Source of the DNA: Amoebidium appalachense
Taxonomy: Eukaryota > Protista > Ichthyosporea
Assembly (NCBI GenBank): GCA_963693365.1
Contig: CAVNZM010000001.1
Span: 7,084,907 to 7,148,906, forward strand
Length of the DNA stretch: 64,000 nt
Direction of reading: 5' to 3'
Of the stretch, positions 13,986 through 63,668 are shown piece by piece. Positions within the stretch are counted from its first letter, which is position 1. Every line of letters begins with the position of its first letter. The notes beneath the pieces are model-generated. The model searched no databases. It was not told the DNA's origin and saw nothing but the letters and a program-made list of their open reading frames with translations. Both the position numbers and the translations under genes were made by a program.

Positions 13986-14703
13986 ACCGGAGTCTTGATT
14001 CTTGCCAAACCCCCTCGCCCCTCCCCCCCCCCTCCCCCCCCACCAACCCCCTGGGAGAAATAGAAAAAGCCAATAGAAAAGGGTACGCAAGGTCTTTTAA
14101 GGTAGCATGACTATCAGGTGGAGAAACTGTCTACAGTTTAGGGGCTGTGCATTCATTGAAACAGTGGAATGTGCCGTGAAATGTCCAGCAAAAACCATAG
14201 CACCCGCAGGTGAAGTGGTGAAGAAAAAGCAAACAGACATAAGGAAGTCAAGTTGAATTTCGGAAAAGGAACGAGCACCCCAACTCATTGCGCCTTGGGT
14301 GTCAGGCACACCGGGAGAGAGGGGGGTAGGGGGAGGGGGGGGGGGGGGAGGGGGGGAGGGGGGAAGAGAGAGAGAGTCAATACTATGAAAAAATCATCTA
14401 CTGTGAGCAAAAAAAGGAAAAATCCCTGTCTGCAACTTCATCTCGCCCTAAACACGCTCATGAGGAACGCCCATGACAAGGGCAAGGGCAAGGGCAATCG
14501 TGTGGGTGTCAATGCGCAGCAGATGATGGGTGACTCCGGGAGTACCTGTGTGTGCATGTCTCAGCATGTGCTAAACGATTTCGTGGAGGTGTTTTTCGTG
14601 TGCAAAGAAGGGAGGTGGTGTAAGAAAGGGAAATGTGTGTGCGGGGGGGGGGGGGGGTGGGGAGTGTGTGTGTGTGTGTTTGGGGGGGGGGGGGGGGGTT
14701 TAC

Positions 14704-15092
14704 CTCTCCTGCCCATTGAAGCAGGTCACCTCACCAGCATCATCAGATGCACTTCTCCTGAGGACGGCAGCAGGCACATAGGTATCCATGCACATGTTGT
14801 TGTCGTGCATGTCAACGTCTTGACCCGCACTACCCAGAATGTACTCAATGGAGAAGTGCCCCGCGGATGTGCGTCTTTGTGGGTGTGGGGCATGTGGAAA
14901 ACTCGTTGGGTGGGTGTCTGCCTGCAGCATTTCGGCGCTTTGTGTGATGTGCTGCTCAAAGAGTGTGATGCCATTGTGAGAATGGCTGCGGACACGTCTC
15001 TGGCTGTCGTGGGTATGACTCATGTCTGGTGGGGAGTTGAAAGGACTATGTGTAGAAAGGGAAGAAAAGCGCGTACGTGTTGGTGATTCCAT
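14704..15092 (-). CDS. Probable first exon of a hypothetical protein with an eh1-like motif (FSIEYILG)
   Basis: Open from ATG at 15092 (MESPTRTRF...) to a GTAAAC donor at 14703, which is followed by poly-C on the minus strand like other introns here. Downstream exon structure is unresolved. Confidence 0.5.
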
Positions 15093-15796
15093 TTTTGGAA
15101 GATTTTGTGCTTGCACATATATGAGAACGGGTTGTCTGTTTTCCTGGTAGTGGTTATGTGGGCATTTGGGGGTTGTAATGGTGGTGTGCAGGTGTGGTTT
15201 CGTATATAGAGGTTCGACAAGTGAAGGGTGAATTTGTATTGTAAGCATGTGCTTGTCACGACAATTTTATTCTCCGTTATGGGCATTACCACATGTGCAT
15301 GAGAAACTTGTGTGCTAACGTGAGGGGTATCTGCTAATGGATTAGTTGCATTTCGCCTGTGTATGAGGTCAACGGCTGCTAAACAATGTAATGATACTGC
15401 ATTTGCTCTCTGTGAGAAAAGTAAAGTGCTTGTTTGATAGCAATAAACTTCTAATATGCCCGAAGTACCAAAGCGGGGGTGTGTGGCACGGAGGCACGGA
15501 AAGATAAGATGACTGAACTTGAATGATTGCGTCAACAATATTTGTCAATGTACGACCACGAACAGAATCAATGACGTCATAGATGTAGGTTTTAATAAAT
15601 GTGTCTAATAAGGTATGTACGTATTAGTCTCCAAGGCTATGTACTTAGAGTACTTTGCAGAGAACCGAAAGTTCAGGGATGTGGTGCAAAACACGAACGA
15701 GCGCAGCGACTGAGTGTTTTGTGCCGAATTCCTGTGCTTCGGTTCGAGGTTGGTAGTTGGTACTTGCGGCGTGAGCCACTTTTTTCATTCCCGTGC

Positions 15797-15889: not shown

Positions 15890-16092
15890 GGACTTCACTT
15901 TCACTTCGATCACCTAGCTGTCACGTCAACTTTTTTTCCCGATTCTTCACCATGGCAGGTATATAAAGGCTTTCGTTTCTTCTTTTTTGCGGACTTCACT
16001 TTCCGAAACTTCGATCTCTTAGCTGTCACGTCAACTTTTTTTTCCGATTCTTCACCATGGCTGGTATATAAAGGCTTTCGTTTCTTTTTTTT
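15890..16092. repeat. Tandem ~101-bp duplication, each unit containing TATATAAA
   Basis: Units start GGACTTCACTTTC at 15890 and 15991 and share TAGCTGTCACGTCAACTTTTTTT and CCGATTCTTCACCATGGCwGGTATATAAAGGCTTTCGTTTCTT. Confidence 0.9.
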
Positions 16093-16970: not shown

Positions 16971-17442
16971 ATTATTTTTGTGTTCCCACGAGTCCATCGA
17001 TATCATAGTTTTGCGATCTCTGATCAGGGTTGATGCATAGCATGCCGCATATGCGCATGGTGATCTCGGCGCCGGCAAGGGTCGGTCCAGGGATCTAAAA
17101 TAGTGCGCTGACCGTGTAGATGGTCAAAAGTTTGCTATGATATCCATGGCATTTTTCCATTCATTTGCATTTAACTTTTCTATTTTATTTGTGTATAAAC
17201 ATTCAATTTTCAAAACTTTTGATCGCTTCCGCCAATCAAAAGAACGTCTTTGACCAGATGCCCATTTCGGCATCCGCCAAAAGGTATATAATAAAGCGTG
17301 ACAACCCTTCATTTTCACGATGGCGGCACTACGCGCGCAATAGTAAAAGTGGCTCACAATGCAAGTACCCACTGGCTTACGTAAGTGGCTGAGCACTACT
17401 ACGCCACGGGACGTCTCCAGCCGGGTTTATGTAATTCTGATA

Positions 17443-17558
17443 GGCAATCGGAACGCTTTATTAAAGTTTATTTTCCTGATGGGCAATAGGAACGCTTCCG
17501 TACTTCTGATGGGCAATAGGAACGCTTCCGCAATTTTGTTGTTGGGCAATAGGAACGC
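17443..17558. repeat. Four spaced copies of GGCAATAGGAACGC
   Basis: Copies at 17443 (one mismatch), 17482, 17512 and 17545; spacings are 39, 30 and 33 bp. Confidence 0.9.
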
Positions 17559-27412: not shown

Positions 27413-28275
27413 ATGGACTCCATTGGGGGTGGGGGTGGGGGTGGGCAGAACAACCCACCAACCTCTCTACCACCAATGGACAGGGACACCGCTTTAACCC
27501 TTTTCAAATTACTGCAAACACTCAGCCAGGATTCTCTCGCTAAATTTTCAGCGGAAACACTTTTCAACGAAGCTAAACAGGTCATCGGTTCCGACAAAAC
27601 AGCTTGCAGGGAAAGTGTTGAAAATGACTCGGTTGGTGGTGTGGGCGTCCGGGGACTGACGAAAGGAACAGCGTCAAGCACAGACCAAGAAAGCAGCGGC
27701 ACCAATTTGGATAACCTTGGGATAGACAACGAAAATTCGGCACCATGTGGCATAATTTCAAACGACTACTATTGCACAGGCTACTCTGACGATGTTGGCA
27801 GTTCAGGTTCGGACTCCGATTCGAAAGACTCTGCATCAGAGAGCGAATTGGAGGGTGGGGGAGGGCACGAAAACCCAACAGGAGAGATTTCAGAATCCCC
27901 CCCACCACTTGCAACCAGTCAACCCATCACCCTACGCGACCTAGCGCCCGAGTTTGCACGCGATTGGCCGATTTTTGCGCAAAATGAAGTTTTGGACCTC
28001 ACACTGAGCGGTGTGCAGCGGGGCCACTGGGCCCACTGTGTGCTTTGCCGCCTTCTGATTGGCTTACTCACCACCGACAAAACGAAAAGGGCGCCAGATG
28101 TCCCCAGCCAATGGGAGTCGTTTCCGGTGGCAGGAAAGCTCGATTTTGATTGGACGATAGATGATCCTCGCCCGGTGCTCAACCCTGCCTGTGGGAATGT
28201 CCAGGTGAGTGTACATGTTGGTGGAGTTGGGTCTGCTCGTGCGTGAGAGAGGAAAAAGGGGTGGGTGGGGTGGGG

Positions 28276-28310
<35 letters not shown>

Positions 28311-28327
28311 GTGGGTTTTTTTTTTTT

Positions 28328-28358
<31 letters not shown>

Positions 28359-28482
28359 GGGCAAGATTAGTGTTTTGTCGACGTCATTGTTGGTTTTTGA
28401 TTAACTGTAGCATCAATGTATAAGCCCGATATCACTCCTACTGATTGTGTATTATCTTTGTTTGACCTTTTTGTATTTTTAG

Positions 28483-28516
<34 letters not shown>

Positions 28517-30373
28517 CTAAAAAAAAAACAAAAAAAAAAACAAAAAAAAAACCCCCCCTTTCCTTTTTATTATTAGTTTTAGTCACAAAGTTTTCAGTAT
28601 AACACCGAATGTGTCGGGTCCATTTGATCAGTTTCCATCCCATCCCATCAGTCGTTATTATTGTACTGACAATCTCCCCCTTCCATCCGCCTTGCCCATT
28701 ACGTCAATCTCCCAACCCCAAACCCCCTACCCTCCTTCAACTCCTCCCCCCTCCCCCCCCCCCCCCAGACCCTGTCCCTCCCCGGGACCCCCCGCCCTCT
28801 CCCCCCTCTGGAACCCTCCCCCCCCCCCTCCCCCTCCCCCCCCCCCCCTTTTTTTTTCCCCTTTCAATTCACGAAGTGCCATTTTGTATTTAGCCCCCCC
28901 CCTCCCCCATCAACCCATCCCTTGTCCACCCACCCGTCCATTACAGTTGTCCCTCTCTCCCTTTATTAACCCTACCACACCTTCTCTCTTCCCTTCTTTT
29001 ATGTCCATATCATCCCAATACCCCACCTCTCCCCTCCCCTCCTCCCCCCCTTCCCCCCGGCTCCCTCTCCCTTTCCCTCCTCCCCCCCCCCTCCCCTCCC
29101 CCCTCCCTTCCCTCACCCCCTCCTTTCCCCTCCCTTCCTCCCCCAAACTTCCTGACCCGTCCCCCTTCCAATCCATCGCCCTATCACCCACACCATATGT
29201 CAAAACACAGGCCGGGAAAAGCGAGTAAATGCTGATTATGGCCTGGGTTTTCTTTCACTTCTACGGGTGCCTGCCCGTCATTTTCCTCAAGCAGTTGGGG
29301 GGTTTAAGCGCCTCCCAGCAGATCAGGGGGGATTTCGAGTCTTTCAACAACAAGCTGTGCCGCATGCTCAGAGAGCACGGGGAGGAGTGGGGGTGGCCTG
29401 TCTACAATGGGGCCTTGGATGACTTCGACTACTACATTAAACGTTTCCTCGTTCAAAGAGCACGACGTCATGGAGAACGTACCCAATCGGCAAGGAGGCG
29501 TCGTGGCTTTTGGCCAACCGGATGGCGGTCGTGTCCGTCGCAATGCCGTCCTGGTCGTGGTCAGCAACATCACGCATGTGGATCGAATTTTGGGTCACGT
29601 GCTTGGACCAGTCACGAGCGCACATGGACCAAAAATCGATCACACGGGCCAGGTGCGATTGCGGTGCATTGCGATCTGCGATGAGGATGACCGTAACATC
29701 ACCTCCAACGGCCAATCGGATCGCACGGAGCGCGGTTTCCATAGCAAACAGGAAGCAACGGGTGTGGACCTATATGGGAGCTTTTCAGGAATTCCCGGGT
29801 TGGATGGGATCGAATTTCCGGGGCTCAGGCAGTGTGTCTGTCAGTGTCTATGGGGCCGTGGGGGTCACGGCAACTCCAGCCCCCATCCTGGCGATGGAAT
29901 TTCTGGAAATTCGCCCTCACAAAATCGAAACAACGGATACCTACGTGGGGTACAGGGAGGGTTTGGACGGGTAACACCTGAGAGACGGTTACGAAATCCA
30001 ACCGCGAATTACGGGAAGTCGGGTTACGGCGACACGGGGAGCCAAAATACGGCACTATGAAGATGTGGTGTGGCCCCAGCTGGGCAACAAAACTATAAAC
30101 AAGGTGCGGGCCGAGCACGGGTTCAAACCGGGGAGGGTGACCCAGGCAGCCATGGGTGCTGTGGACTACTTGCACGTGGTCCGGCTGAGCGGGGTCCCTG
30201 TCTGCTTACGACAGAGACAGAGCGGTGCGTTACCTACCCCCCCCCCCCCCCCCTTTTGCCCCCTCACACCCGAGTCTCCCCCCCACCCCCTCTCCTTCCC
30301 CCGCCCGCCCCCCTCCCTTCCCCTCCCTTCTCATCCCCAATGGCCCCTCTCTCTCGTCCCCTCCTCCTCCCCC

Positions 30374-30411
<38 letters not shown>

Positions 30412-31325
30412 TCTGCCACCCTTCCAACACACACACATGCACATACACAAGCACAGTTCTCCCCTGCCCAACTGATCTCCACGTGTTTTTGACAACCGCC
30501 CTCCCTCCCTCCCTTCACCCTCCCCCCCCCCTCTCCCCCCCTCCCCAGCGCCTCCCCTCTTCCTCTATGCATGTATATACGTGTGGTCACATGACCCATT
30601 ACACCCACCACCCCCTCCCCTGGCCCCTCTCCCCGATTGCAGAGTTCTCCAAAATCCCCACCCTCTTCCTTGCCCTACAAGTACTTGTAGCCAAAATGAA
30701 CTCCTAGATCTTAAAAATTTGTGAAAATTGCCTGCACCTCTCATTCAATCCCCCCCCCCCTCCCCCCCCCCCTCCCTCCCCCCCCCCCCCCCTCCCAAAA
30801 AAAATAAAAAATTACTGAACGGTCATATGCGAAACTCTCTCCCCTTCTCCTCTCCCCTCCCCTCTCCCACTTACACACCCACCCACCAACCTCATGCAGC
30901 CTCTCCAGTCTTATTGAACCTGTCACACCTTCTACCCCCCTCAGGGCCTGGAGGAGGCACTCTATGACGTCACCAGTCTGGAAGACACCAGTCCCTTCCG
31001 CCACCTTCTAGCCATCACCGAGCAGAGCAAACAGCTCAAGGGGCAGACCGAGCTCGTTGCCGCAATTCTGGACAAGTGGGTGGCACCGTCACGTGACCGG
31101 CGTCCAACCATGTGTGCTCTTTGGCGTCATGACCGCCTATATTTCTACACCCCCTTCGATTCTAGCCAATGGTTGAAGGGGGTTTCTGGTGTCGTGGGGC
31201 TGGAAACAAACGTGGATGGGGTGCATGGGTACCAGCTGAAGGGTGAATCGGCAAACTCCGGGGCTATATTGGATGTCATCTGGTCCCAGGTGCGTATTAA
31301 TATGCTCCCCCGGGCAATATGAGTT

Positions 31326-31363
<38 letters not shown>

Positions 31364-31979
31364 AAACCCCCCTCCGTCCCCCCCTGCCGCACCCTCGTTT
31401 CCTGAACCCCGCTCTCCCATCAACCCTACTCTCCTCTCCTCCCCTTTTCACTCCTAATTCAGGGGCCTCTAGTGAACCACATTACGCCACTACCGTTGAG
31501 CCTATCATGCTCGCCTCGTTTTTCACCCCCAATTTTCCTAAACAAAGCATTTTGACGATGATCTTTTTTTTATCCAACACACCCCATCACCCTTCCAAAG
31601 CAACCCCCAACCCAGAAACCCACCAACATACCTACATCCCACTCCGCTACAGGTCGATGCAGCGGTGCCCGTAGCCCAACACTGGCGCCTTGTGACCGTT
31701 GCAGGGGAGTTATTTGGCCGGGGCACCAAAGCAAAACCCCAGCATGGCCGAAACAACAGCAGAGGCTACCTCACAGACGAATATGTGGGCCAGAGTTTGT
31801 GTCTGGGCCGTGCCGGTGGCCCGCATGCCGAGATGTTGATGCAGGCTGCAGGCAGGCTGTGTGGTGTCATAACAGACCCTGCACAGCTCCACACACCCCC
31901 AACCCTATGGTACGTTGACACTCCCCCCTCCCCCCTCCCCCCCTCCCCCCCTCCCCCCGTTCTCCCCCCCTCCCCATCC

Positions 31980-32010
<31 letters not shown>

Positions 32011-34046
32011 AGCCCTCGATCTTCCTAATGGGCAGACCCCCCCCCCCCCCCCCCCCCCCCCCCCCGCCCAACCCCCCTCCACCCCCCCCCCCCCCTCCCC
32101 TCCCCTTCGGCAGCCACCGCCGTCACAGCCGTCCACTCCTCCCCTCTCCCCTCCTCCCCAACTTAAAAATTTTCAAAACCACCCTATACCCCCCTCCCTC
32201 CCACTCCCCCCCCCCCCCCCCCCCCCCTCCTCCCCTCCCCCCTTCCCTTAATTAATGCCCTCTTCTCAGAACCCTGCCCTGCCGTAATATCCCCCAGCCC
32301 TCACACGAACTTCTCCCTTCAACCTTCCTCCCCTCCCCCCTCCCCCCCCCCCCCCCCCCAAAAAAAAAAAGGCTCCCCCTTCCCCCCCCTCAATCCCTTC
32401 CTTAGTCAATTCTCACACACACAGGACTCATCCCCCCCTCCCCACCCACCCAACATTTCCCTCCCCCTCCCCCCCTTGGAATCCATGCCCCCCCCTTCCC
32501 CCGCCTCCTTCCCAGGCACCTCTGTTGTTAACTGAACTCTTTCTTGCTCGAAGCTCCCCCCCCCCTTCCCCCCACGTATTGCCACCCTGTCTGCATCAAG
32601 TTCCAATCACCCATGGATACTCAGTAGGCTAATACAGGGCACGCAAAGACAACTCACTTTTTTATTTTTATTTTTATTTTTATTTTTATTTTTTATTTAT
32701 TTTTTTTTGGGGGGGGGGAGGGGGGGGGAGGGGGGAGGGGTATGTGATACCATCAACAAGCACTTAAATAGCGTAACCCCCCCCAGGGCATCGGAAACTG
32801 TTCATCTCATGCACGCCCTTGCTCTCCGCCTGAACGCCATTATGATCGAGGCGAAAATTCAATCTTCCGCTGCCCCCCTTGTCGAACTTCTGGCAGAAAC
32901 AATCACCAGCGGTCCAGGTGATGCCAGCCACGTGGGTGCACACTTCAGAGACATCAAGCGCACCACCGCCATAGGCCGCAAACAGGTTGGGACTCTGAAA
33001 ATTACGCGCAATCGCATTCATCGCCAAGTGTTCCAACCAATTGGTGACGAGCTCAAGCGGCGTGCCGGTGACGATTTGCCTGGGGTTGAAATCACCAAAC
33101 GGCTCCGCCTAGACCCCACCAAGCCACCTCCACCCATCGTCACGTCCTTCCTAATTGATGAAACCACCCGCGAACGCCCAAATCCCAAACCCCCCTCTCA
33201 GGTTTTGGCTTCCAAATTGGTTAACGAAAACTTCTCGAAACGCATAGAGAATCGGCAAACAGCAACGGGGTGATGTCGGATGGGGACGGTGTGGCTCGAG
33301 ACGCCTTGCATGTGCTCTGTGGCTTCGGCTGATTCGCGATCGAAGAAAACGACCTCCTTTCACGGTTGGCGGACCCGGACCAAGACACGGAGCTGTTTGA
33401 AGCGTCGCGGGATGACGTCATGGACCGTCTTCAATTGGCTACAAGTCACGGCTTTCCGGAGGACTTTTTCCATACAGCGTGCAAAGATGTGCGTCACGAA
33501 CTGCGAAATTTCCATGTGACGGAACATGGTGACCCCGGGGAGGAGGATGGTGTCTCGTTGGGCATACCGGAGGTGCTGGTAAAGGCGATGGCGACGGAAT
33601 CGAAGAAACGGATTGCAAGGGCAATAAGCGGACGCAAAAACCGAAAACAGCCCATTTTTCGCGCAAACCCCCCCCCAACCACCCATTTCAGACCAAAGGC
33701 GTATGTACTGCCAAGAGCTGGTGCACGATCTTCGCCAGTTGGCTATGTTGCCGGCGGAGAGGTGGCGAGAATATCAGTACACGGTGGGCAAAAATGACGA
33801 AACATTCGGGCGGCTGGCTGCGAGATTATTGAGGATGTGCAAGTGTACAAGGTGGCTCACCTAGTGCCCGAGTTGGCATGGAGTACGCGGCTACTTACCG
33901 AATTGCGGCTGGGTGACATGAATGGAGAATTTGGGCAGACGGGGTTGCGGTCATACCGGGCTGTGATATCCCATGGACCCCACTTGGTGAGATCTGGTCA
34001 CCGGGGAAAATATGCATTGCACCCGGATATCGCCAATTTTCTGTGA
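27413..34046 (+). pseudogene. Intron-containing, disrupted SF2 helicase-like ATPase with motifs resembling Z1-domain-associated helicases
   Basis: Exons at about 27413-28204, 29211-30224, 30945-31289, 31653-31909 and 32787-34046. Splicing creates Walker A GNVQ|AGKS. Also present: Walker B CIAICDEDD, motif III GVTATP followed by TYVGY, motif V-like VAGELFGRG and motif VI-like EMLMQAAGRLCG. There is an in-frame TAA at 29226 and several frameshifts (about 29440, 29760, 30000-30190, 33270-33360, 33790). Confidence 0.75.
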
Positions 34047-36771: not shown

Positions 36772-38287
36772 GGTATTCCTAAAAACTCTCTCGTGACGGA
36801 CCTCGGAAGCCACTCCTCAAATCTATACTTGAACATCGATTGAGGACAAGGCTTTAAATTTGCCCAGGCTGGTAGCCTGGCAGAGCCCGACGGCGTTCCG
36901 GCAGTGCGTGCCGGAGCAGTGATCGAGTGGAATACCTAGCTAGGACTATAGCACCATCCAGTAGTATTGTGAGGTCAAATTCCGATGTGTTCTTAAACCT
37001 AAATAGGGGTTAAAAACGGCCTGATCGTACACTTTGGTTCTTTTTTTAACAGGCATATAATTATTATAATAAGCTGTTTAAAGGCGCATTAATTTTGAAC
37101 CAGAGATACTTTTATCTGGTGGCTTTCCCGCCGAACATTCCTTACGATCCAATTAGAATCCGACTTCGAATGGCACATCTGTACACGCGATAGTATTCGA
37201 GGTCTCTGGATCTCCACGGATCGCAAGCCGATTCAATCGCGTATAAGCCACACCATAAGTATAGTGCACTTGAATACGTACAAATACACAAACTATTACA
37301 CAGTATATACAGCTTGGGGCTGATAGGCTGAAGGACTGTGCAAGGTAATAAGACATATGGTGCCTTTATACTTATTTGCTTTTATACATTTTGCGAATTC
37401 CAGAGTGGCTGCGGATCGGCGATATCGGTTACCTGTTTGTGACAATGGACTCAGGCACGGTGACTATGTTCTGTTGTTTGTGAAGGGGATTTTGACGTGG
37501 GGAAGTTCAAAGTTGTCCTATCAATGGGAACGCCAAAAGCATCTATCTCGTCACCAGCAGTGCCAGAAGTATACTCGGGGTCCTTAGGGGATTTTTTCTT
37601 TCTAGTTTGCAGGTGCGTTTAGGAGCCACACGTCCACCTCATTTTATGATTCCTGTGACGGGACACGTGGATTATTGTAGGTTCAAAGGATTTCAAGGAG
37701 GTTTGAGCCTCTTTCAGGGTTTTCAGGGGAGCTACATACAGCCCTCGAAGCCAGCGCGGTGGTTTCTAGGTTTACCTTTGCTCGAGACAGCTTTAACCCC
37801 CAAGTGAGGTAGCACCAGGATGGAATCAGTTCGAACAAGCTAGGGCTCGAGGCACTAAGAAGGGGAAGCAGGACATTCCTATGCGCCGTTTATGCGCCAA
37901 AAATTCCTCTTTCCCCCACCCTTTTTTTCCACCTTTTCCCCCTCGAAAGATAGATTATTTTATACCGGGTGGGAGTTGGTGAGAAAGTATTTAGTTCAAT
38001 CATACATGCTGTGACCCGGAGAGAGAGAGCCCCAGTGGTGGCGTGGAGGTGCCTTTACGGCTTTTCAAACCCTTACGAGGCAGGGCCACTCAAACTTTAC
38101 GGAGAAAAGTGCAGTTGAGACAGCGCTAATGGGTCCGCAAACATGACATTAGGTAAGCTGCATCGTAACTGTGGCGTCAGTGATTCACTGTGCACTAGCA
38201 TTTTTTTTTTTTTTTTTTTTTTTTTTCCCCTCCCGCTGTGCGACACCATCACGCCTGCTTGAGTATGCACGTGTGTACATAGTGGTC

Positions 38288-63668
<25,381 letters not shown>

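What the first reader, a model, noticed from the sequence alone, without database searches (positions are those of the whole stretch)
27413..34046. Spliced eukaryotic copy of a Z1-type SF2 helicase-like gene, now decaying
Seen: Walker A GNVQAGKS is formed across an exon junction, followed by DEDD, TATP..YVGY, AGELFGRG and LMQAAGRLCG in the correct order, with long unrecognised N- and C-terminal extensions. Established: the GxVQSGKT / TATP / RG / LxQxGRxxG pattern typifies Z1-domain SF2 helicase-like proteins of prokaryotic MORC/restriction-type loci. From recall only, related proteins also occur in large DNA viruses. It is not a standard eukaryotic housekeeping family. The gene has host-style poly-C introns yet carries a stop and several frameshifts, while neighbouring host exons are error-free, which argues for real decay rather than assembly noise. 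Inference: cargo or core gene of an uncharacterised large mobile element or endogenised virus, or an HGT-derived defence gene.
Basis: partly seen in the sequence, partly recalled or inferred. Interest (0 to 1): 0.72.

Follow-up and report, generated by a model that had tools for sequence, protein, structure and literature searches.

The report
Dead restriction-type DNA motor in protist
A single-celled eukaryote carries a spliced but broken gene for a protein that resembles the DNA-tracking motors of some bacterial restriction enzymes; it likely came from outside, likely lived for a time as an ordinary host gene, and likely died only recently.

Summary
The gene has five exons (27413-34046) and four GT-AG, C-rich introns like the host's. 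Six Z1-family motif blocks occur in order: chain score 44 against at most 27 in 500 shuffles and 11-23 for five ordinary SF2 helicases, but 153-185 for true Z1 proteins. So it is a distant DEAD-Z1-like ATPase, not a Pfam Z1 member; motif VI spacing and the H/H motif differ. The decay is real. Short-read contigs of two samples match every exon except one extra C at 33668, an assembly error. A strain about 1% apart shares four lesions, lacks three and has one of its own; its differences are 7 synonymous to 25 non-synonymous, i.e. neutral. The 'cargo of a large element' reading is not supported. No element ends, viral genes or close paralogue were seen. A base-converted library shows CGC/GCG-only methylation, which points to an Amoebidium-like host and is the host-gene pattern there, not the viral-insertion pattern. 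No homologue close enough for a tree was found, so the donor (giant virus or bacterium) is unresolved. Best reading: a laterally acquired, domesticated, recently dead DNA translocase gene.

The parts
27413..28204 (+). Exon 1: ATG, acidic low-complexity N-terminal extension, first half of Walker A (GNVQ)
   Evidence: matched letter for letter by contigs of X1 and X4; X7 has a 4-base deletion at 28113
28205..29210 (+). Intron 1 (GTGAGT..ACAG, 1006 nt, C run of 31), phase 0, inside Walker A
   Evidence: splicing inferred, no RNA junction seen
29211..30199 (+). Exon 2: AGKS, Walker B (DEDD), motif III (TATP), Y motif; stops at 29226 and 29972; two frame changes (about 29452-29540 and about 29690-29850). 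Alternative donor at 30225 would need a further frame change
30200..30944 (+). Intron 2 (GTCTGC or GTGCGT donor..TCAG), C-rich
   Evidence: donor choice unresolved
30945..31289 (+). Exon 3: open, 115 codons, region of the second RecA-like half; no H/H motif
   Evidence: covered without differences in X1
31290..31652 (+). Intron 3 (GTGCGT..ACAG, 363 nt)
31653..31909 (+). Exon 4: motif V (GELFGRG) and motif VI (QAAGR); 8 columns invariant with eight bacterial Z1 segments
31910..32786 (+). Intron 4 (GTACGT..CCAG, 877 nt), phase 2
32787..34046 (+). Exon 5: about 420-codon unrecognised C-terminal region; frame changes near 33222 and 33825 (absent in X7), stop at 33330, assembly error at 33668, terminal TGA 34044-34046

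Best explanation
This is a broken five-exon gene that likely encoded a distant DEAD-Z1-type ATP-driven double-stranded-DNA translocase, likely acquired laterally and likely kept as a solitary host gene until it recently began to decay neutrally. Predicted mechanism of the intact protein: two RecA-like halves bind ATP through the Gln-containing Walker A and DEDD, motif VI supplies the arginine finger, and the motor tracks along duplex DNA without unwinding it, as H.CglI does. With no nuclease or methyltransferase beside it, the motor would have acted in trans, most plausibly moving or loading a DNA-modifying or chromatin factor chosen by its long C-terminal region in the methylation-based control of foreign DNA. 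Shown: exon anatomy, motif order, real lesions, strain-specific lesions, neutral substitution ratio, host-type methylation. Inferred: translocase activity, lateral origin, domestication, partner and role.
For: Motif chain 44.2 bits vs 0 of 500 shuffles and vs 10.6-23.3 for five E. coli SF2 proteins. hhalign against 42 Z1 cores scored 30.0, above all 30 shuffles (max 25.1), P 0.004. Exon 4 aligns with 8 invariant columns. Lesions are confirmed by short-read contigs; strain X7 differs by 7 synonymous and 25 non-synonymous changes, omega about 1.1-1.5. Four introns have host-like donors, acceptors and C runs. Converted library X12: 420 differences seen over 8 pieces vs 433 expected if only CGC/GCG CpGs resist, 357 if all CpGs resist, 492 if none. 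PMC11244446 (sections 6-8 read) describes CGC/GCG-only methylation as the default of host genes in Amoebidium, all-CpG methylation as the mark of viral insertions, and solitary KDM4-like genes outside insertions as possible domesticated remnants. The gene stands alone, 3.2 kb from the first exon of a neighbouring spliced transcript, with no recognised neighbour.
Against: No standard profile search is significant: Pfam, PADLOC, PHROGs and NCBIfam on fragments give nothing credible, hmmsearch of my Z1 profiles gives E 0.04-0.14, and hhalign probability is only 8%. No homologue was found for a tree, so lateral origin is inferred from family distribution only. No intact copy was seen, so purifying selection in the host was never observed. 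The same paper reports intron-bearing genes inside viral insertions, so introns do not prove domestication. It also reports higher methylation on silent genes, which this locus does not show. The host name rests on a methylation signature, not on a marker gene. The substitution count omits 7 unlisted rows and exon 3.
Confidence: 0.55

Rival explanations
1. The gene is the last remnant of an endogenised giant virus or large intron-tolerant mobile element, never useful to the host, left behind after the rest was purged.
For: The likely host has many such insertions with fast turnover, and some viral genes there keep introns (PMC11244446 sections 7, 8). Unchecked notes of this scan report Z1-like motors as common in giant viruses. 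Exon CpG o/e is 0.84 against 0.67 in host kinase exons. About 12 kb upstream holds no recognised gene.
Against: Host-type methylation, no terminal repeats, no viral neighbours, no close paralogue. Four long C-rich introns match the host's own. The locus is shared by strains about 1% apart, while most insertions are reported as strain-specific.
Confidence: 0.25
2. The gene belongs to an old, vertically inherited but often lost eukaryotic family of Z1-like motors tied to DNA methylation, and this lineage has just lost it.
For: Very deep divergence from all bacterial Z1 proteins (44 vs 153-185 bits). Full host-like anatomy. Unchecked notes report Z1-like motors in diatoms and a marine protist.
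Against: Exon 4 found no relative among 1.84 billion cluster representatives (one hit, a repeat protein that I judge false), although that library may under-represent spliced genes. Five exons in 3.7 kb of coding DNA, two of them over 950 nt, against 16 exons of 50-190 nt in the host kinase, suggests recent intron gain.
Confidence: 0.12
3. It is some other divergent SF2 helicase pseudogene whose short motifs only resemble Z1 motors.
For: Motif VI has the ordinary QxxxR spacing and the H/H motif is absent. RecG's Walker A scores as well as the query's in the Z1 matrix (17.4 vs 16.3). Profile searches are not significant.
Against: The whole chain scores about twice the best ordinary SF2 control. 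The Gln in Walker A, the Y motif at the right distance and the G-x5-RG...L...Y pattern of exon 4 are Z1 features.
Confidence: 0.08

Closest known systems
[quoted passage not shown]
   Same: Order and rough spacing of Walker A with Gln, Walker B, motif III TATP, Y motif, motif V RG and motif VI; two-RecA layout followed by a family-specific C-terminal region.
   Different: Motif VI QxxxR rather than QxxR; no H/H motif; DEDD rather than DDEAD; no significant PF10593 match; about 260-residue N-terminal and 420-residue C-terminal extensions; four introns; no nuclease or methyltransferase neighbour; broken.
Solitary KDM4-like genes of Amoebidium outside viral insertions (PMC11244446 section 8)
   Same: Multi-exon gene flanked by host genes with CGC/GCG-only methylation, from a family linked to foreign DNA.
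   Different: Different protein family; here no copies inside viral insertions could be looked for, and the gene is dead.
Giant endogenous viral elements, adintoviruses and Plavaka giant repeats of Amoebidium (PMC11244446 section 7)
   Same: Same likely host; a plausible route by which such a gene could arrive.
   Different: Those are gene-dense, intron-poor, hypermethylated at all CpGs and carry core viral genes or transposases; none of this is seen here.

Membership tests
DEAD-Z1 motors (PF10593) | Walker A with Gln in place of Gly | tested here: met
   GNVQAGKS across intron 1; 74 of 74 reference cores have the Gln; feature named in PMC5861437
DEAD-Z1 motors (PF10593) | Walker B, motif III and Y motif in order at family-like spacing | tested here: met
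   Walker B is DEDD and scores weakly (1.7 bits)
DEAD-Z1 motors (PF10593) | Motif V with RG | tested here: met
DEAD-Z1 motors (PF10593) | Motif VI with short QxxR spacing | tested here: not met
   QAAGR needs a one-residue gap against all eight reference segments
DEAD-Z1 motors (PF10593) | H/H motif (two His eight residues apart) in the Z1 domain | tested here: not met
   read by eye from the translation between the Y motif and motif V: no such pair
DEAD-Z1 motors (PF10593) | Significant match to the Z1 profile | tested here: not met
   Pfam on fragments; own profiles E 0.04-0.14; fragments and divergence lower the power
DEAD-Z1 motors (PF10593) | Two RecA-like folds | tested here: inconclusive
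   only fragments could be folded; mean pLDDT 38 and 42
DEAD-Z1 motors (PF10593) | DNA-stimulated ATPase and dsDNA translocation | not testable with these tools
   needs biochemistry on an intact homologue
CglI-type restriction-modification system | Neighbouring methyltransferase and nuclease genes | tested here: not met
   0 of 78 flanking frames hit such a family; small or decayed exons could be missed
Amoebidium giant endogenous viral element / giant repeat | Hypermethylation of non-CGC/GCG CpGs | tested here: not met
   at most 13 of 76 such CpGs resist conversion in 8 contig pieces; contig consensus, one library
Amoebidium giant endogenous viral element / giant repeat | Gene-dense, intron-poor cluster with viral core genes or transposase | tested here: not met
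Amoebidium giant endogenous viral element / giant repeat | Related copies elsewhere in the genome | tested here: inconclusive
   none at 85% identity or more in X1, X4, X7; no genome-wide protein search was possible

The most novel reading that the evidence does not exclude
Eukaryotes with DNA methylation repeatedly domesticate restriction-type DEAD-Z1 motors, relayed by giant viruses, as nuclease-free DNA translocases that help mark or silence foreign DNA. This locus would be such a gene in a close relative of animals, intact until just before the present strains split, and sister species would still carry a working copy.
Probability: 0.2. Interest if true: 0.75.

Novelty: new variant of a known kind. 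Interest (0 to 1): 0.4.

Why it matters
DEAD-Z1 motors are described only from bacterial restriction systems in the papers my searches returned. A spliced copy with host-type methylation in a likely animal relative suggests this motor family can become an ordinary eukaryotic gene, as other restriction-system parts did (PMC2292703, passages, on MORCs). The strain comparison catches the loss in progress: four shared and four private lesions over about 1% divergence. Its weight is limited because the copy is dead and apparently single, has no partner gene, and no intact homologue was found.

Tried and rejected
Assembly noise as the cause of the breaks: rejected for all but the C run at 33668. Alternative genetic code: host kinase exons need none, and strain X7 has a sense codon at one of the stops. 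Homologue searches that found nothing: exon-2 piece against longer proteins (0 of 692 candidates), exon 4 against 1.84 billion representatives (one hit, a repeat protein that looks RCC1-like by recall), viral contigs, metagenome contigs, prokaryote genomes (one 26-residue chance match), phages, PDB sequences, Atlas for exon 4. One search returned only bacterial-type Z1 proteins because the profile was mostly bacterial, so it is no evidence about the query. I could not obtain giant-virus Z1-like sequences (searches gave bacterial-type ones), so no tree was built. The Atlas hit of exon 5 to phage DUF6441 proteins (0.94, recognition under threshold) was set aside as weak; Pfam did not match that family. 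phrog_6156 and phrog_13194 weak hits are not Z1 families by test with four Z1 proteins. A winged-helix guess for the last 74 residues is recalled and was not supported by a pLDDT 38 model. Expression: no RNA holder was listed, and two probable RNA runs of one sample have no listed contig on the exons although they cover the neighbouring transcript; this is not counted as evidence. X9 and X11 hold only short identical pieces at low depth and say nothing about relatives. The genome index did not complete and no own genome is held. Rfam: no match. Supplements of PMC11244446: two files searched for four terms, no hit; its full gene tables may not be among them.

Full report
Observation. The window is eukaryotic DNA rich in C, G and CA runs. 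Three-frame translation gives five coding blocks on the plus strand: 27413-28204, 29211-30199 or 30224, 30945-31289, 31653-31909 and 32787-34046. The four introns are 363-1006 nt, GT-AG, 39-54% C, with C runs of 29-36; the 15 introns of the host histidine-kinase gene further right are 199-2199 nt with similar donors and runs ('kinase' is my label from recalled motifs). Walker A is split by intron 1. Splicing is inferred; no RNA junction was seen. Read through with X at breaks the product is about 1220 residues.

Are the breaks real? The window has three in-frame stops (29226, 29972, 33330) and up to six frame changes. Short-read contigs of samples X1 and X4, either of which may be the source of the assembly, match all five exons with no other letters and one gap: one C fewer at 33668. 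X7 and X12 show the same, so that frame change is an assembly error. The change near 30190 vanishes with an alternative donor. Strain X7, about 1% apart (33 listed coding differences over about 3.3 kb covered; exon 3 not covered), has Glu at the first stop, lacks the frame changes at 33222 and 33825, and has its own 4-base deletion at 28113. No listed row alters the two exon-2 frame changes or the other two stops, so four lesions appear shared; 7 rows were not shown. Of 32 classifiable differences 7 are synonymous and 25 not, against 24-29% synonymous expected by chance. The gene is decaying neutrally. With four private lesions over 1% divergence and four shared ones, death probably came not long before the strains split; this is a rough inference from small counts.

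What protein? Family libraries on fragments gave nothing credible. I gathered Z1 proteins (8 of 201 genomes; 80 viral-contig loci) and aligned 74 cores. HMMER was not significant (E 0.14, 0.058, 0.039). hhalign gave probability 1.6% with 7 sequences, within the shuffle range, and 8% with 42, above all 30 shuffles. It gave 44.2 bits, with 0 of 500 shuffles reaching it. Five E. coli SF2 proteins scored 10.6-23.3 and 88 held-out Z1 proteins 153-185; the latter were selected by a Z1 profile. PMC5861437 (passages) defines the DEAD-Z1 motor by a Gln-bearing Walker A, a Y motif, a short QxxR motif VI and an H/H motif, and shows dsDNA translocation. The first two are met, the last two motifs are not. 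It probably works like a DEAD-Z1 motor but is not filed as a member of PF10593.

Host and context. Run X12 differs from the window only by C>T and G>A, so it is a base-converted library. Over 8 listed pieces 420 differences were seen; 492 are expected if all cytosines convert, 357 if all CpGs resist, and 433 if only CGC/GCG CpGs resist (summed misfit 72, 63 and 13). In the one stretch listed base by base, the single CGC site resisted, as did 1 of 6 other CpGs. PMC11244446 (sections 6, 7, 8 read whole) reports this context preference for the ichthyosporean Amoebidium, about 70% against 20%, with all-CpG methylation marking viral insertions, young transposons and silent genes. The host is therefore likely Amoebidium or a close relative, and the locus has the default host-gene pattern (at most 9 of 56 other CpGs resist in the five gene pieces). 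This comes from contig consensus of one library. A 4102-nt contig of a probable RNA run covers 37281-38152 and stops at a GT donor, so a spliced neighbour begins 3.2 kb downstream; that it is the kinase is inferred. No terminal repeats flank the gene (one search was swamped by simple repeats). 77 of 78 flanking frames have no Pfam hit. No diverged second copy at 85% identity or more was laid in three samples; older paralogues would be missed.

Mechanism and origin. Best reading (0.55): a laterally acquired, nuclease-free DNA translocase that gained host introns, served as a solitary host gene and recently died. Its role in methylation-linked handling of foreign DNA is a guess from the family's known context and from unchecked notes of this scan, which describe Z1-like motors beside DNA-modifying enzymes in giant viruses and diatoms; no such partner is seen here. 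Rivals: a never-useful viral or element remnant (0.25), an old eukaryotic family being lost (0.12), or another SF2 family (0.08). All searches for close homologues failed, each limited to exon-sized fragments, and the genome index was unavailable, so donor and copy number at the protein level are open.

Literature. Searches for Z1 terms, for restriction-type helicases in giant viruses and eukaryotes and for Amoebidium with helicase listed no title or abstract start on a eukaryotic DEAD-Z1 motor; I saw those as listings only. PMC12344493 and PMC2292703 were seen as passages, PMC7159879 as one reference line. Subscription journals are largely missing from the library.

Verdict. A real and unusual gene, but dead, apparently single and without an identified intact relative: new variant of a known kind, interest 0.4.

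Noticed in passing
window:1546-3126 (+): Intact 526-codon frame with reverse-transcriptase-like motifs, Penelope-like by recall; no Pfam or PDB sequence match.
   Followed up: partly
window:12840-13995 (-) and 14703-15266 (-): Two open frames that look like exons of an unrecognised gene; no family hit and no homologue among 2588 candidates for the first.
   Followed up: partly
window:37281-64000 (+): Intron-rich host gene with hybrid histidine-kinase motifs (label from recall); 16 exons translated are open; one intron appears to use a GC donor near 54591; a 4102-nt contig of a probable RNA run covers 37281-38152.
   Followed up: partly
window:4993-5150, 41293-41473, 55876-56136: Dispersed short repeat of 70-160 nt at 77-95% identity, perhaps a SINE-like or retroelement end; no Rfam match.
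   Followed up: partly
window:48760-49200 (+): About 145-codon basic, Cys/His-bearing frame inside a kinase intron, possibly a transposon fragment; no credible hit.
   Followed up: partly
window:15301-19690: 4.4 kb block of lower GC (43-49%) almost free of the homopolymer runs seen elsewhere, with short local duplications at 15890-16086 and 17431-17558; no recognised gene.
   Followed up: partly
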